Sequence record: OL615012
Direction: 5' to 3' (one strand)
Length of the DNA: 64,000 bases
Source of the DNA: Shigella phage vB_SboM_Phaginator
Shown one piece after another: positions 12 through 60,551 of the stretch. Position 1 is the stretch's first letter; each line of letters opens with the position of its first letter. The notes under the pieces are model-generated. The model saw only the letters and a list, made by a program, of their open reading frames with translations, had not been told where the DNA came from and ran no database searches. The position numbers and the translations under genes are program-made.

Positions 12-2189
12 TTAGGCCGCAAGGGCCTTCATAGTTTTAGCGATTTGGGAAACTTCATCATCACTTAAAGAGTTGCGATAACCGATGAAGTCAGAAACAA
101 TACGGAATTTCTTGGTAAACTCAGCAACCATTTTATCACTATTTTTTGAAGCATTACGTGATAATTCATCAAAGAGATTAGTTACTGTCCAGATATCATG
201 ACCGATGGTATCTTTTCCACCGTTGAAATATACACCCTGTAATGAACTAACCATATTAGCGAGTCGTGTATATTCTTCAGAAACTTCATCTACACTGAAG
301 TACTTCATCATAAAATCTAACTCAGGATACTTGATAATTTTATCAATATATCGTTTAGCTGAACTTGAATAACCTACATACTTATCATAATCTACATCAT
401 CAAAAGCATCTACATATAAATCACGCAAAGCTTCAAAAATACATTGGCACTGACCGAGTTCTTTTACCTTTTTCTGTAAAAGCGGACGAATAACATAAAA
501 TTCATTAATGCCAATAAGATTAGCCATACGAATCAAAATATTCATAGATGGATGACAAAGCGATGTAGTACCATCCATAGAGAAAATATCAGAACGATGC
601 ATATACGCTACATAACCAGTAATTTCATCTGCTTCTGATGTGAGAGTAAACAGTTCCTCTTTTTCCCAGCGCCCGTCTTTAATTTCAAACTTAAATGCAG
701 TAGCAGCTTTAGGACGAGGAGCTGCACTTTTTACTACCTTTGGAATATAACTTTTAACTAAAGCTTCGATTTCTGACAAATAATGTATGTTAACTTCATC
801 ACTTTCAAACATTGCCATAATATCAGGAAGCAAATCAATCTGCGATTCTACTTCCGGATTAATAAACAGAAGACGCTCATTATGATGAATATTCAAAGTG
901 TTATTAAATTCACTATCATCTAATGCACGTGCTAATCCACGGACAATATTAACACGATTTTTAATATTATCAATAACAATATTAATTTTTGTCGTATTAA
1001 TACCAAACAGACGATAGCTTGACGCAACGGCTGAAGTTTCATGACTTTGCTTAATGCGTTTCAGTCGAGGGTCAAGATTTACTTCATACACCACGCCTGC
1101 ATTACATAACTTACTGTCAGGTTCAAACATGCTCTGCATCTTTTTATATGACAGATTTTTAGTCGTGAATTTGACTGAATTACTAATCATATAATCTCGA
1201 GCAGAATACCCCATCTTCATCAATTCACGATATGTGTGACGGGGAGATGTAGATTCTTTAAATCGTTTTACATCTTCATTAAATGCTTTCTCACTAAGCT
1301 CTTTAACTCGTTCAATAATATTTTTACGAGTACGATCATCCAATGAAAGAGCTTCACGTGATGGAGCAATATCAAGTGAACCCATTGGAAATTTAATGTA
1401 ATTCACTTCATTGCGAATGCTTAGCCAGTTACGGTCTCTAATAACACCATCGATAGGATAAACGATACCGCCGTAGATAGCATATAATCCACCACGATCA
1501 GGCCAGTATCTTTCTGGATTTACACCGTAATAATCATCAAAATCCGGAAAATAATCAATTTCGCGGTCAAGACCATTAATGATAGCCAAATCTTTGAACG
1601 GTCGCATGATATAAGAAACTTCATAAGCAAAGTTTCTAAAGTCTTTTTCTTCAACTGGAACTACGATTTCAATGCCAGTTTTATCATCTGGACCCATTTC
1701 TTTCACGAATGTAGGTTTAATTTGTGGACCATCACCATCCATGTAAGCTACATAACCACGAATTTCACCTTTATGATACGAAGTAATACTAAATGTATCA
1801 GTATAACTAAACGGAGATTTAGAACCTAAACCAAATCCGCCAATGAAATCGTTAGATTCAGCCTTAGATGAACTGAAGTATGAATTATACAAACCAGGAG
1901 AATTATCATCACCCTGAATATCAAAATCACTCATACCCGGACCAAAATCTCGGCAAACAAATCGTGGATCTAAACGTCCAGGAACTTGTATGATAAATTT
2001 TTCAGGATTTCCATTGAGAGCATGGGCATCAATCATGTTGGTAATCAATTCACGAACAACTGCGCGAATTTTGTTTGTATACAAATCAGATGACAGAATT
2101 TTAAATACTTTAGGAGATGCTGTGATGCTAAATGCTTTTGATTTAGAACCATTACCAAGAATTGTTTCTTTTTCAGTGGTGATAATCAT
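12..2189 (-). CDS. rIIA: rIIA protein (725 aa), GHKL-ATPase-like N-terminus
   Basis: 725-aa ORF at the same coordinates and length as T4 rIIA; motif [10 protein letters not shown] resembles a GHKL ATP-binding fold. Confidence 0.9.
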
Positions 2190-6729: not shown

Positions 6730-7166
6730 TAGCTTACACGAACATTAATCACTGCGCTGCGAGGAACTACAGAGTACTCTCCAGCATGAACTACGTTCAG
6801 AAGTTCAACACCATCTTCAATCCACTGATCAGTCACCCATCCACCCACAGGATTCGCGAATGGACGACGAATATAAACTGCCTTACACAGTAGATCAGTT
6901 GGATCTTCAGGTTTTTCAATTTCTGTCAATAGACTAAAATCTTTTTCATAAATAATAAGCGGTGATACCATTCCATAATAGTTTCTAATTTCAATATACA
7001 TCATACCGATAAGAATTCCGCTATTAACACTAATAACAGTAAAAGGATATCCGCCAGTTAAACCAAGAAGTTCACAAAACTTATTATGAGCTGTATTAGA
7101 CAGTACCGAAAAATTCTTAATTTCATCAAATTTTTTCAATTGATAAACAGCATTATTTTTAATCAT
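6729..7166 (-). CDS. hypothetical protein (145 aa) with MotB-like C-terminal motif
   Basis: C-terminus GGWVTDQWIEDGVELLNVVHAGEYSVVP parallels motB GYITDQWVEDGVKLYNVVFLGTYKVVP. Confidence 0.6.
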   Translation of the reverse strand: MIKNNAVYQLKKFDEIKNFSVLSNTAHNKFCELLGLTGGYPFTVISVNSGILIGMMYIEIRNYYGMVSPLIIYEKDFSLLTEIEKPEDPTDLLCKAVYIRRPFANPVGGWVTDQWIEDGVELLNVVHAGEYSVVPRSAVINVRVS

Positions 7167-15549: not shown

Positions 15550-15740
15550 TTTGAATGATCTATAATTAATTTTAAATCTTCTTCACTGACAAAAATTTCG
15601 TCAGGACCTTCTATAACTTCAACCATACGAAGTTGATTAGTTAAGAGCTCACATACGAGCTCCTTGTTATAATCTTTAAATAGCTGGTCAATACGTTTCT
15701 TATGGGCTTTCTTAAGCTGACGCTTATTTAAACGAGTCAT
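15546..15740 (-). CDS. hypothetical protein (64 aa)
   Basis: ORF-track ORF; ATGA overlaps at both ends. Confidence 0.5.
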   Translation of the reverse strand: MTRLNKRQLKKAHKKRIDQLFKDYNKELVCELLTNQLRMVEVIEGPDEIFVSEEDLKLIIDHSK

Positions 15741-16258
15741 TAATAACCTCGGTCTTGACGAGCGAAGTTTTCAGCATTTTTCAGGTAATAAAGTTTAAAG
15801 ATTTCTTCAGCTGACATTCCAAGAGCAATAAATTTATTCATGAAAAAGTGAAATTGGTCAATCAGTTCAAATTTAATTTCAAGCTGATCTTCGGGAGATA
15901 AATCTTGAATTTTCTTGGATTGCATTTCAGAATAACGTTTCTTCCAAGGTTTCCATACAGCAGAAGCTTCTTTTTCACCATTACTCATACCACCAAGAGA
16001 AGTATATAGTTCGCGAGTTTCATCTGCGATATAATCGTCTTGGTTTCGCAACCAAGCAAGAACTTCTCCTGCAGTTTCAAGTGAATCAGGATGACGATTT
16101 GTTTCTGGTTTATCATTAGCCAAACGAATCTGTAAATGCCGCTGCATATCAAGCATAACCTGCAGTGGGTCAATATTGTGCATAATATTCTCAGCATATG
16201 CACGATTTGCTTTATCAACGCCTTCGATCAAATGAGCACATTCATTAAAGTAAGCCAT
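15740..16258 (-). CDS. 56: dCTPase/dUTPase (gp56)
   Basis: Start trimmed to MAYFNECAHLIEG..., giving 172 aa (T4 gp56 ~171 aa). Confidence 0.85.
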   Translation of the reverse strand: MAYFNECAHLIEGVDKANRAYAENIMHNIDPLQVMLDMQRHLQIRLANDKPETNRHPDSLETAGEVLAWLRNQDDYIADETRELYTSLGGMSNGEKEASAVWKPWKKRYSEMQSKKIQDLSPEDQLEIKFELIDQFHFFMNKFIALGMSAEEIFKLYYLKNAENFARQDRGY

Positions 16259-16292
16259 TATTTTTCCTTTCAATTCATGGGTTAGTAGATTA

Positions 16293-16317
16293 ATTATACA
16301 ATAAATATATAAAGCAA
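16293..16317 (-). promoter_or_regulatory. MotA-dependent middle promoter candidate for gene 56
   Basis: Minus strand TTGCTTTA (MotA box), 11 nt, TATAAT, ~35 nt upstream of the gene 56 ATG. Confidence 0.5.
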
Positions 16318-16329
16318 TAAGGAGGACAT

Positions 16330-16530
16330 ATGGTACAAAAATTAATGGCACTTGTTAATGCCATAAAAGGTAATAAAAAACGTATAGCTTTTACTATTTC
16401 TGCTATGGTAGGAATTTTACTCTGGAACTTTATTCTATCACCTGTTGCAATTGCACATGGTATTAATATTCCAGTAGTTACTCTTGATACATTTGTAGAT
16501 TTAGCATTTGCTTTAGTTGGGTTAATTTAA
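16330..16530 (+). CDS. small hydrophobic protein (66 aa) on the opposite strand
   Basis: Plus-strand ORF after AAGGAGG; hydrophobic sequence; stop overlaps the gene 61 stop; lies where T4 has dam as I recall. Confidence 0.35.
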   Translation: MVQKLMALVNAIKGNKKRIAFTISAMVGILLWNFILSPVAIAHGINIPVVTLDTFVDLAFALVGLI

Positions 16531-17555
16531 ATCTTAGCATATTTAGATAACCGCATTTTAGCCATCAACCCCTGGGCAATATTATTTTTCATATATTCCA
16601 TAATTTGTTCAGGGGTTGCACCTTCCTTTCTAATCATATCATTGACATCTTTTGATTTCCAGGGAGATTTATCCCAAAACATAACCCTTTCTCCTGCATC
16701 AACTAATTTAGTCATTCGCTTGATAGTGTCAGGGTGACGAGGTTCATTATCTAAAACCCACACTCGTCTATCTTTAAATGGAACAACTTCTAGGTCTAAT
16801 TGACCGCCAGTAATGGCTATACCATTTTCAATAAAAAGTGAATCGATGGGTCCTTCTAGAACATATACATCACCATCTTTAACTCGTTCAACACCGTAAA
16901 TTTTTGTTGCCTCAGGATAAGCTTTGATGGTGATATACTTTTGTGGAGCATCTTTCTTTAATGCACGTCCTTGAAAAGACTCAGCTTTTCCATTAGCATT
17001 ATAAATTGGAATAACAAGACGAGGCTCAGAAATTTCCTTTTTGTATGTTCCCGGTGCTATGCTATTAACTAATTTAGGCCATTCGGTTGTAAACCAAAGA
17101 TATTTCCATTTATCCTTTGGAATACAACGAGCTTTTACATATTTTATAATTGGATGGTCTTCCGCCAGTTTATCTAATCTAACACATGACGGAAGAGATT
17201 TAATTATTTTCTTCTCAGGTTGCTTAGGAAGTTCTTTAGGTTTTTCTACTGGACGACTTTTACCTTTTTCTTTTCTTATTTCAAAGATATACTCACGATA
17301 TAAATCAGGTTCAAACTCCTTTAAATATATTCCGATTGGTGCATGATAATTACAGTTATAACAATGAATATTTCCTTCATTATTATCGCCATAATACCAT
17401 CCACGGGCTTTATTTTGATCGGTTTTTGAATCTCCACAAACAGGACATCTAAACCGTAATTTAAAAGTTGAACTATTATTTACTTGTGTGAATTTAGGTA
17501 AATGAGCTAATGCACGGTATGCAAACTCATTATCAATCCAAGGTATTGATGACAT
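16527..17555 (-). CDS. 61: DNA primase (gp61)
   Basis: 342-aa ORF, T4 gp61 length; zinc ribbon CPVCGDS...CYNC. Confidence 0.9.
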   Translation of the reverse strand: MSSIPWIDNEFAYRALAHLPKFTQVNNSSTFKLRFRCPVCGDSKTDQNKARGWYYGDNNEGNIHCYNCNYHAPIGIYLKEFEPDLYREYIFEIRKEKGKSRPVEKPKELPKQPEKKIIKSLPSCVRLDKLAEDHPIIKYVKARCIPKDKWKYLWFTTEWPKLVNSIAPGTYKKEISEPRLVIPIYNANGKAESFQGRALKKDAPQKYITIKAYPEATKIYGVERVKDGDVYVLEGPIDSLFIENGIAITGGQLDLEVVPFKDRRVWVLDNEPRHPDTIKRMTKLVDAGERVMFWDKSPWKSKDVNDMIRKEGATPEQIMEYMKNNIAQGLMAKMRLSKYAKI

Positions 17556-17723: not shown

Positions 17724-18080
17724 TTAACCTCTATTCATAAAAGCATTAAAAATTTGGTCATCAATAGATGGCGCAGTAATATTTTCTGCATCATTTAGCA
17801 AATCATTAATTTCATCAGATAGCATAACACATGTACCTTTATTTCCTGTAATTGTTACTGCACAATTACGAACGTTTTCTTTATCAAATTTTAGGTTAAT
17901 ATTTTCGTAGTGAAAATCCTTTAATGCCGAATATATCTTTAAAATGAAATTGTCTTTTACTACAATAAACCCAACCTCACTATTAAAACGCGGTTCATGG
18001 AAACTGTAATAAACCTTTTCATCTATAAAATCGTATGAAATTTTTTCCATTTTTAAATATGAAAATTCAGAACTATACAT
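17724..18080 (-). CDS. hypothetical protein (118 aa)
   Basis: C-terminus IDDQIFNAFMNRG and its 3' DNA repeat the end of the next ORF. Confidence 0.6.
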   Translation of the reverse strand: MYSSEFSYLKMEKISYDFIDEKVYYSFHEPRFNSEVGFIVVKDNFILKIYSALKDFHYENINLKFDKENVRNCAVTITGNKGTCVMLSDEINDLLNDAENITAPSIDDQIFNAFMNRG

Positions 18081-43054: not shown

Positions 43055-43095
43055 AATAAACCCTTACCTTAAATAGATAAGGGTATTTATTATTT

Positions 43096-60189: not shown

Positions 60190-60551
60190 TACAAACTCTC
60201 AGTAAAGGTACGAGCGATAACGTCGCGCTGCTGTTCCGGAGTCAGAGAGTTAAAGCGAACTGCATAACCGGATACACGGATGGTCAGCTGCGGATATTTT
60301 TCCGGATGCTTAACTGCATCTTCCAGAGTTTCGCGACGCAGAACGTTAACGTTCAGGTGTTGACCACCTTCAATTTTAACTGTAGGCTGTGGTTCAATTT
60401 CAATTTCACGGGCATGCAAACCGTAGAAAATTTCTGGGTCTACAAAAGAGTCCTCTTTAAAGGTTTTAGAGACAATAATTCGTGCTTGAATACCATCTTC
60501 AAAATAAATAGTACCTTTGTGTGTGCCTTCAAGAATTTGATATGCTTTCAT
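60189..60551 (-). CDS. GrcA/YfiD-like autonomous glycyl radical cofactor
   Basis: 120-aa ORF; C-terminus ...[60 protein letters not shown] carries the RVSGY glycyl-radical motif and matches E. coli GrcA as recalled. Confidence 0.7.

What the first reader, a model, noticed from the sequence alone, without database searches (positions are those of the whole stretch)
16259..16530. No dam between genes 56 and 61; a short opposite-strand ORF with a strong SD sits there
Only ~270 bp separate gene 56 from the gene 61 stop. T4 carries dam in this interval as I recall; no ~259-aa methyltransferase ORF is present. A plus-strand 66-aa hydrophobic ORF preceded by AAGGAGG lies here and ends overlapping the gene 61 stop. 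The same DNA also carries a candidate MotA-box middle promoter for gene 56 on the minus strand.
Basis: partly seen in the sequence, partly recalled or inferred. Interest (0 to 1): 0.4.

Follow-up and report, generated by a model that had tools for sequence, protein, structure and literature searches.

The report
Dam-less T4-like interval with conserved micro-gene
This T4-like phage naturally lacks the dam methylase cassette between genes 56 and 61, as phage T6 and most of its relatives do, and the short opposite-strand ORF there is a conserved small membrane-protein gene of unknown function (called dam.1 in T6) that T4 also has, probably switched on late in infection.

Summary
268 bp separate gene 56 (15740-16258, -) from gene 61 (16527-17555, -). 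No Dam homolog lies in the interval or elsewhere in the 64-kb window. A 66-aa plus-strand ORF (16330-16530) follows AAGGAGG (16319-16325) and overlaps the primase stop.

None of this is unusual. The same dam-less junction occurs in 293 phage records, including T6. Only 182 of about 500 Tequatrovirus records carry a T4-type Dam anywhere.

The ORF does not replace dam. T4 has both, with 2 aa differences, though its RefSeq record leaves the ORF unannotated. Elsewhere it is annotated as a hypothetical protein (T6 "dam.1", RB69ORF029w, phrog_2024).

It is very probably a real gene:
- codon-position substitution bias, pN/pS 0.11-0.19;
- positional orthologs of 63-66 aa in representatives of seven Tevenvirinae groups (six named genera plus a Klebsiella phage);
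- a conserved W-N...P...G...P...[DE] core;
- a predicted N-in/C-out single-span membrane topology.

A late-promoter core (AATAAATA, 16300-16307) sits 22 nt upstream of the ATG. ATAAATA is conserved in six of the seven groups (one mismatch in the seventh) and is five-fold depleted in the window overall. On the minus strand a consensus MotA middle promoter for gene 56 overlaps it, matching T4 P(M)16.53/oriA.

Expression timing is inferred, and the protein's function is unknown. Interest is low to moderate.

The parts
15740..16258 (-). Gene 56 (dCTPase/dUTPase), 172 aa
   Evidence: ORF list; phrog_173 E 2.4e-44; 98-99% DNA identity to annotated dCTP pyrophosphatase genes.
16293..16316 (-). MotA-dependent middle-promoter-like site for gene 56. 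MotA box TGCTTTA = +16310-16316, 11-nt spacer, -10 TATAAT = +16293-16298. Positional homolog of T4 P(M)16.53, the oriA primer promoter.
   Evidence: Sequence aligned to the T4 X01416 annotation of the mot-box and -10. RB69 has a high-scoring predicted Pm:16038 at the same place (PMC1524935 suppl. 4). Function is inferred.
16300..16307 (+). Late-promoter core AATAAATA, the A(-13) variant of TATAAATA. Predicted transcription start about 16313-16314. It lies inside the spacer of the minus-strand MotA promoter.
   Evidence: ATAAATA occurs 8 times in the window against 42.2 +/- 5.8 expected. Six of the 8 copies lie just upstream of an SD+ATG, including soc, gene 49 and e. It is conserved upstream of the ORF in 6 of 7 groups and marks the left edge of conserved sequence across cassette haplotypes. 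The A(-13) variant is found at 9 of 50 T4 late sites (PMC2988020). No experimental transcription start is available.
16319..16325 (+). Shine-Dalgarno AAGGAGG, 4 nt before the ATG
   Evidence: Sequence. A GGAGG/AGGAG-type SD is present in all seven groups.
16330..16530 (+). Small ORF, 66 aa plus stop (dam.1 / RB69ORF029w / phrog_2024 family). Predicted single-span inner-membrane protein: basic N-terminus in the cytoplasm, TM about residues 19-41, acidic and hydrophobic C-terminal 25 aa outside.
   Evidence: phrog_2024 E 1.4e-31. 692 phage records. pN/pS 0.19 and 0.11, with second codon positions nearly invariant. Orthologs in seven groups. AF2 model with helices 2-12, 16-42, 52-63, pLDDT 79.6. 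Charge distribution.
16345..16364 (-). Terminator-like hairpin plus T-run on the minus strand, 160 nt downstream of gene 61 and inside the ORF's first codons. Low confidence.
   Evidence: Scan. -8.9 kcal/mol, z -1.8, not conserved in RB69. Terminators are annotated at this place in Yersinia phages fPS-90 and fPS-65.
16527..17555 (-). Gene 61 DNA primase, 342 aa. Its stop codon overlaps the small ORF's stop.

Best explanation
The interval is the ordinary dam-less form of the gene 56-61 junction of T-even phages. In T4, T2 and about a third of Tequatroviruses, a dam cassette is inserted at this hot spot. The cassette usually consists of dam plus an upstream gene with a restriction-endonuclease fold. 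It lies between the gene 56 middle promoter and a small conserved module that stays attached to the primase side.

That module has three parts: a gp55-type late promoter core (AATAAATA here), a strong SD, and a 63-66-aa gene on the clockwise strand. The gene is called dam.1 in T6 and RB69ORF029w in RB69, and it belongs to phrog_2024.

I propose the following mechanism. Late in infection, gp55/gp33/gp45-RNA polymerase starts at about 16313 and makes a short-leader mRNA. This is translated into a single-span inner-membrane protein with its lysine-rich N-terminus in the cytoplasm. Its conserved G-x3-P-x-V-x-[LIM]-[DE] tail faces the periplasm, and its invariant intramembrane Trp-Asn pair probably mediates self-association or binding to a membrane partner.

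The role I think most likely is modulation of a late envelope event, such as lysis timing, lysis inhibition or a membrane-associated assembly step. That part is a guess.

On the other strand, the same 25 bp form a MotA/AsiA-dependent middle promoter for gene 56, the homolog of the T4 oriA primer promoter.

What is shown: the anatomy, the conservation, the coding signature, the predicted topology, and the absence of dam from the window. What is inferred: late timing, translation, membrane insertion and any physiological role.
For: Dam-less state is common:
- The junction is contiguous in 293 records and in T6.
- 182 records carry >=90% T4 Dam, against 502 Tequatrovirus records with the ORF.
- There is no Dam in the window or in positions 12.9-168.8 kb of G4507.
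- RB69, Gaprivervirus, Dhakavirus and a Klebsiella phage also have 56-ORF-61 without dam.

The ORF is independent of dam:
- T4 has both.

The ORF is coding:
- Variable sites by codon position are 11/3/17 (Tequatrovirus) and 7/0/15 (Mosigvirus). pN/pS is lowest in the ORF frame, 0.19 and 0.11.
- Cross-group identity is 46-57% and lower, yet length, start, SD and abutment to the primase stop are kept.
- The antisense frame is interrupted in several phages.

Late promoter:
- ATAAATA is five-fold depleted in the window.
- In about 169 kb, 26 of 53 copies lie within 45 nt upstream of an SD+ATG+ORF, against 3.1% of random positions.
- AATAAATA also precedes gene 49 here and in T4.
- The heptamer lies 9-22 nt upstream of the ATG in 6 of 7 groups. 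Entb_45 has the canonical TATAAATA.
- Sequence homology among the three cassette haplotypes begins exactly at ATAAATA.
- All T4 early and middle transcription is counterclockwise, so a clockwise gene can only be late. A(-13) is the commonest natural variant (PMC2988020; PMC1524935).

Membrane topology:
- AF2 predicts a long helix at residues 16-42. A TM at 21-41 was predicted for RB69ORF029w.
- In every group the N-flank has 4-7 K/R and the C-flank 0-1.

MotA promoter:
-.
Against: There is no transcript, ribosome-profiling or proteomic evidence for the ORF in any phage, and none turned up in the literature. Nolan et al. 2006 did not list a late promoter in front of RB69ORF029w among their 31 RB69 sites. 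The -13 base is G in T4 and C in Gaprivervirus, and the relative strength of such variants in vivo is unknown. T6 has ATT in place of the ATG start, so the protein cannot be essential in the laboratory. pN/pS is weaker in Gaprivervirus (0.45). No function can be read from sequence or fold: no Pfam, NCBIfam or PADLOC match, only 7 hits among 1.84 billion representatives, and Foldseek finds only family members.
Confidence: 0.72

Rival explanations
1. The ORF is real, but the main job of the late promoter is RNA-level or promoter-level control. Clockwise late transcription would run antisense into gene 61, since no plus-strand terminator follows. In the dam-less arrangement, gp55-polymerase bound at ATAAATA sits inside the spacer of the gene 56/oriA middle promoter. 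This could help shut off primase expression and origin-A priming late in infection. This reading is not exclusive of the best explanation.
For: The late core lies within the 11-nt spacer of the MotA promoter. The stop codons of the ORF and the primase overlap, and no plus-strand terminator-like site appears before about 21.08 kb. [quoted passage not shown]
Against: In T4 and other dam+ phages the two promoters are about 0.9-1.5 kb apart, so occlusion cannot be the conserved function. An antisense function alone does not need the protein-level conservation seen: codon bias, conserved motifs and conserved topology. In Klebsiella phage Roth76 a GC hairpin separates the two convergent genes.
Confidence: 0.15
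2. The ORF is a holin or other lysis protein, as one UniProt entry names it.
For: It is small, hydrophobic and probably late-expressed. UniRef labels the OE5505 homolog 'Holin'.
Against: The label is a single database name in UniRef/UniProt, while the same protein's NCBI entries call it 'hypothetical protein', and no evidence is attached to the label. The protein has no charged C-terminal tail (0 K/R after the TM). It is not next to the endolysin or spanin genes. These phages already carry the T-type holin. Foldseek hits to holins are at chance level (E 6-8).
Confidence: 0.08
3. The ORF is spurious. The conservation would then reflect DNA or RNA elements, such as promoters for dam and gene 56, a gene 61 terminator, or origin-A flanking sequence.
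For: T4 RefSeq does not annotate it. A terminator-like hairpin for gene 61 lies within its first codons. T6 has lost the ATG.
Against: Second codon positions are almost invariant while third positions vary. The reading frame, length and SD are preserved across seven groups whose DNA is otherwise unalignable. The hairpin is not conserved outside Tequatrovirus. No Rfam family matches.
Confidence: 0.06
4. dam has merely moved elsewhere in this phage's genome.
For: Only 64 kb of the genome are visible. Other T4-like genera (Krischvirus and the RB16 group) carry dam at other map positions.
Against: There is no hit in the window. A 97%-identical relative has none in record positions 12,884-168,828 with T4 or E. 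coli Dam as query and no annotated methyltransferase there. Its first 12.9 kb were not fetched. The number of records with T4-type Dam (182) leaves about 320 Tequatroviruses without one anywhere.
Confidence: 0.03

Closest known systems
T6 'dam.1', RB69ORF029w and phrog_2024 (hypothetical proteins annotated between genes 56 and 61 in T4-like phages)
   Same: Same gene: 91-100% identity within Tequatrovirus and about 55% to RB69. Same position, strand and overlap with the primase stop. phrog_2024 E 1.4e-31.
   Different: Nothing substantive. T6 has ATT at the start and is annotated 5 codons shorter. T4 RefSeq lacks the annotation altogether.
T4 dam region (56 - P(M)16.53/oriA - dam - 61; Macdonald and Mosig record X01416)
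   Same: Flanking genes 56 and 61, the MotA promoter for 56 and the small ORF are all homologous.
   Different: The dam gene (780 bp) and its upstream region, about 880 bp in all, are absent here. As a result, the late-promoter core lies inside the middle-promoter spacer instead of about 0.9 kb away.
T4 late genes served by variant late promoters inside early regions (soc; gene 49 with AATAAATA)
   Same: An ATAAATA core lies 13-30 nt upstream of an SD+ATG. The identical AATAAATA octamer precedes gene 49 in this window and in T4.
   Different: soc and gene 49 are counterclockwise like their neighbours. This ORF is the only clockwise CDS annotated between 12.4 and 75.4 kb in the relative G4507. 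Its promoter has not been mapped experimentally.
Small T4 inner-membrane proteins (Imm, RI, Ac and the like)
   Same: Size class, a single hydrophobic span and a probable envelope site of action.
   Different: No sequence similarity: no paralog in the window and no family match. Those genes are early or early-plus-late and counterclockwise.

Membership tests
dam.1 / RB69ORF029w / phrog_2024 small-protein family | Significant sequence similarity to family members | tested here: met
   phrog_2024 E 1.4e-31 over the full length. The identical protein occurs on 259 contigs. 692 phage records carry it.
dam.1 / RB69ORF029w / phrog_2024 small-protein family | Location between gene 56 and the primase gene 61, opposite strand, tail-to-tail with the primase | tested here: met
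dam.1 / RB69ORF029w / phrog_2024 small-protein family | 63-66 aa, basic N-terminus, one TM helix with W-N, and a G-x3-P-x-V-x-[LIM]-[DE] tail | tested here: met
   Alignments; AF2 model; charge counts.
T4-type late (gp55-dependent) transcription unit | TATAAATA-like element at -13 to -6 with no -35 element | tested here: met
   AATAAATA at 16300-16307, the A(-13) variant found at 9 of 50 T4 sites. Conserved in 6 of 7 groups.
T4-type late (gp55-dependent) transcription unit | Transcript 5' end about 6 nt downstream of the element, dependent on gp55, gp33, gp45 and DNA replication | not testable with these tools
   No transcript data. No paper found that maps this region.
MotA/AsiA-dependent middle promoter | MotA box (a/t)(a/t)(a/t)TGCTT(t/c)A about 12 bp upstream of a sigma-70 -10 (TAnnnT) | tested here: met
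   TTATTGCTTTA, 11 nt, TATAAT on the minus strand. Aligns with the annotated mot-box and -10 of T4 P(M)16.53. RB69 Pm:16038 scores 21.6.
MotA/AsiA-dependent middle promoter | MotA- and AsiA-dependent initiation in vivo or in vitro | not testable with these tools
   Inferred from homology only.
Dam (GATC N6-adenine) methyltransferase gene | An ORF homologous to T4 or E. coli Dam | tested here: not met
   Best tblastn E is 0.16 in the 64-kb window. No hit with T4 or E. coli Dam at E<=0.01 in the window or the G4507 segments.
Holin | At least one TMD plus a charged hydrophilic C-terminal tail | tested here: not met
   One long TM helix, but the C-terminal 25 aa have 0 K/R and end in the hydrophobic GLI.
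Holin | Genetic linkage to endolysin or spanins, or demonstrated hole formation | tested here: not met
   Endolysin e lies at about 63.4 kb. In G4507 the T holin is at about 160 kb and the spanins at about 135 kb. Hole formation is not testable here.

The most novel reading that the evidence does not exclude
dam.1 is a functional late protein conserved across the seven Tevenvirinae groups sampled here, and it has escaped the T4 reference annotation. It is the only clockwise gene inside the roughly 75-kb early-gene block. It would act at the inner membrane in a late process still lacking a component, such as control of lysis timing or lysis inhibition, or membrane-anchored prohead initiation. 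In dam-less phages, its promoter would at the same time compete physically with the oriA/gene 56 middle promoter in whose spacer it is nested. That competition would link the early-to-late switch to shut-off of origin-A priming.
Probability: 0.15. Interest if true: 0.6.

Novelty: already known. Interest (0 to 1): 0.27.

Why it matters
The finding has little bearing on dam biology. Dam is an accessory cassette in T-even phages, and its absence here is the commoner state. The small ORF is a modestly useful reminder. The T4 RefSeq record omits a gene that is conserved, with its probable late promoter, in representatives of six named Tevenvirinae genera and a Klebsiella phage. Adding it to the T4 annotation and knocking it out would be cheap, and could assign a function to a conserved late membrane micro-protein.

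Tried and rejected
1. Readthrough extension of the primase. In this window the frame after the gene 61 stop is open for 78 codons. It is closed after 5-23 codons in KMB23, sb2, CF1 and Roth76. Rejected.
2. Paralogs of the ORF in the window. A family HMM against all six-frame segments finds only the ORF itself.
3. Known protein families. Pfam, NCBIfam and PADLOC give nothing. A profile search of 1.84 billion representatives returns 7 hits, all family members or fragments apart from one long protein with no matched stretch. Foldseek against BFVD returns family members only.
4. Known RNA families. Rfam gives only chance-level eukaryotic hits.
5. A conserved gene 61 terminator inside the ORF. The hairpin is weak (z -1.8) and absent in RB69.
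6. Literature on expression of this ORF. Searches for ribosome profiling, transcription-start mapping, 'dam.1', 'ORF029w' and phrog_2024 found nothing. The Miller 2003 T4 genome review is not held, so I could not check whether T4's list of 50 late sites includes this one.
7. Using to count dam-less genomes. That tool joins pieces up to 1408 nt apart, so the count could include dam-only phages. I replaced it with a 126-nt junction query.
8. Polarity of the indel. Outgroup genera favour insertion of the cassette. The Tequatrovirus dam-less junction is not a simple deletion of the T4 arrangement, because the order of ATAAATA and the MotA box differs. Left unresolved.

Full report
WHAT IS THERE. 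The window is a Tequatrovirus (T4-like) genome segment. It is 97-99% identical to phages such as G4507, REP1 and KMB22. Gene 56 (dCTPase, 15740-16258) and gene 61 (primase, 16527-17555) are both on the minus strand and are separated by 268 bp. On the plus strand, an ORF at 16330-16530 encodes 66 aa. It is preceded by AAGGAGG (16319-16325), and its stop overlaps the primase stop.

DAM. T4 carries dam (259 aa) between 56 and 61. This window has no Dam homolog anywhere in its 64 kb (best tblastn E 0.16). A 126-nt query spanning the dam-less junction is contiguous in 293 phage records. Phage T6 has the same 56-ORF-61 arrangement.

In the whole phage collection, 182 records carry a Dam at least 90% identical to T4's, while 502 Tequatrovirus records carry the small ORF. 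So roughly two thirds of the genus lack a T4-type Dam altogether.

I checked one close relative, G4507. It has no Dam hit with T4 or E. coli Dam as query and no annotated methyltransferase in record positions 12,884-168,828. Its first 12.9 kb were not fetched. The window's homologous early region has no Dam.

RB69 (Mosigvirus), Gaprivervirus, Dhakavirus and a Klebsiella phage also lack dam at this site. Absence of dam is therefore the common state and probably the ancestral one. The site is a cassette hot spot. It can be empty, hold dam only (T4, G8), hold a 186-aa gene plus dam (BF15, TOPO13, T2), hold a frameshifted dam (Pinarejo), or hold other small genes (Moonvirus, Kanagawavirus).

THE SMALL ORF IS NOT A SUBSTITUTE FOR DAM. 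T4 has the same 66-aa ORF (T4 17738-17938, 2 aa differences) between dam and gene 61. It is not annotated in NC_000866, in KJ477684 or in the original X01416 record. Elsewhere it is annotated as a hypothetical protein: "dam.1" in T6, RB69ORF029w and PHROG family phrog_2024 (E 1.4e-31). The identical protein occurs on 259 contigs.

IS IT A GENE? Several lines of evidence say yes.
- Within Tequatrovirus, variable sites fall 11/3/17 on codon positions 1/2/3. In Mosigvirus they fall 7/0/15. pN/pS is lowest in the ORF's own frame, 0.19 and 0.11. Gaprivervirus is less clear at 0.45.
- Across groups, protein identity falls to about 50% and then to the limit of detection. Even so, a 63-66-aa plus-strand ORF with an SD abuts or overlaps the primase stop in Tequatro-, Mosig-, Gapriver-, Dhaka-, Moon- and Kanagawavirus and in a Klebsiella phage.
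- These orthologs share W-N-[FYL]-x4-P-x5-G-x3-P-x-V-x-[LIM]-[DE].
- The antisense frame that continues the primase reading frame is open here. It is interrupted in several relatives, so a primase readthrough product is excluded.
- No Rfam family matches.

I put the probability that this is a genuine protein-coding gene at about 0.9. One caution: T6 has ATT instead of ATG at the start, so the gene is dispensable at least in that laboratory lineage.

THE PROTEIN. AlphaFold2 (14-sequence alignment, pLDDT 79.6) gives a short N-terminal helix (2-12), a long helix (16-42) and a short C-terminal helix (52-63). Nolan et al. predicted a TM segment at 21-41 for RB69ORF029w (PMC1524935). In every group the N-terminal flank holds 4-7 Lys/Arg. 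The C-terminal flank holds 0-1 basic and 0-2 acidic residues. By the positive-inside rule, this predicts an N-in/C-out single-span inner-membrane protein.

The invariant Trp-Asn sits within the span. A polar Asn in a TM helix typically drives helix-helix association (general knowledge; an inference here).

No Pfam, NCBIfam or PADLOC family matches. A profile search of 1.84 billion representatives finds only 7 hits, and there is no paralog in the window. The single 'Holin' label in UniProt comes with no evidence (the same protein's NCBI entries say 'hypothetical protein'). The protein also lacks a holin's charged C-terminal tail and its genetic context.

HOW IT IS PROBABLY EXPRESSED. All T4 early and middle transcripts are counterclockwise. 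Only late transcripts can be clockwise (Geiduschek and Kassavetis 2010, PMC2988020). In the annotated relative G4507, this ORF is the only plus-strand CDS between 12.4 and 75.4 kb.

Twenty-two nt upstream of the ATG lies AATAAATA (16300-16307). This is the A(-13) variant of the late-promoter box TATAAATA. It is the commonest natural variant, found at 9 of 50 T4 sites. Nolan et al. also found -13 poorly conserved, with A or T.

The heptamer ATAAATA is strongly avoided in this genome: 8 copies in 64 kb on both strands, against 42.2 +/- 5.8 in shuffles. Six of those 8 lie just upstream of an SD+ATG. Among these are the known late genes soc and e, and gene 49, which carries the same AATAAATA in T4 as well. 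Over about 169 kb (the window plus the rest of G4507), 26 of 53 copies lie within 45 nt upstream of an SD+ATG+ORF of at least 50 aa. The rate for random positions is 3.1%.

The heptamer is kept 9-22 nt upstream of the ORF's ATG in six of the seven groups, although the surrounding DNA is unalignable. Entb_45 has the canonical TATAAATA, and CF1 has one mismatch. Among the three Tequatrovirus cassette haplotypes, sequence similarity begins exactly at ATAAATA.

I therefore infer a gp55-dependent late promoter with a start near 16313 and an 17-nt leader. Against this, Nolan et al. did not list such a site for RB69, the -13 base is G or C in some lineages, and no transcript has been mapped.

THE OTHER STRAND. 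The minus strand reads TTATTGCTTTA, then 11 nt, then TATAAT, about 35 nt upstream of the gene 56 ATG. This aligns with the mot-box and -10 annotated for T4 P(M)16.53, the promoter whose transcript primes oriA. RB69 has a high-scoring predicted middle promoter at the same place.

In this dam-less haplotype, the late core lies inside the middle promoter's spacer. In Mosig- and Dhakavirus it lies just outside the MotA box, and in Gaprivervirus the two abut. In all of them the two promoters are back to back within about 40 bp.

A weak terminator-like hairpin for gene 61 transcripts lies within the ORF's first codons (16345-16364, -8.9 kcal/mol, z -1.8). It is not conserved in RB69. No plus-strand terminator-like site follows the ORF before about 21 kb, so late transcripts would run antisense into gene 61 unless Rho stops them.

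VERDICT. This is the commonest natural form of the 56-61 junction, with a conserved, already-annotated hypothetical micro-gene. My contribution is the case that it is a real gene with a conserved late promoter and an N-in/C-out membrane topology, and the note that T4's RefSeq record omits it. The physiological function remains unknown. My committed guess is a late envelope or lysis-related modulator acting through a membrane partner, with low confidence.

Noticed in passing
[not shown]
   Followed up: partly
L033 about 2232 (T6, MH550421 about 16231): Phage T6 has ATT instead of ATG at the small ORF's SD-linked start. Its 'dam.1' is therefore annotated from Met6 as 61 aa. This could be a lab-strain lesion or a rare ATT start.
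   Followed up: partly
whole window: The late-promoter core is strongly avoided. ATAAATA occurs 8 times against 42.2 +/- 5.8 expected, and TATAAATA 4 times against 11.6 +/- 3.4.
   Followed up: yes
window 6948-6954 (+) and 60504-60510 (+): Two further clockwise ATAAATA copies lie inside early genes with no SD+ATG downstream. They may be antisense late promoters or chance survivors.
   Followed up: no
window 43083-43090 (-); T4 L028 about 1085-1092 (-): Gene 49 (endonuclease VII) is preceded by AATAAATA, not TATAAATA, both here and in T4. This is the same variant as in front of the small ORF.
   Followed up: yes
L013 and L014 2282-2353; L004 2872-3621: In Gapriverviruses, a second weak partial copy of the small ORF (aa 29-52, 42% identity) lies about 90 nt downstream of the first. 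In DK-13 a homing endonuclease is inserted between the small ORF and the primase.
   Followed up: no
L022 698-1390 (Pinarejo): This phage's dam is frameshifted near codon 229. It is annotated as a 230-aa methyltransferase plus a 37-aa ORF.
   Followed up: partly
window 16293-16526 (-): The primase reading frame stays open for 78 codons past its TAA in this phage. The extension is not conserved in relatives, so it is a by-product of lying antisense to a coding region.
   Followed up: yes
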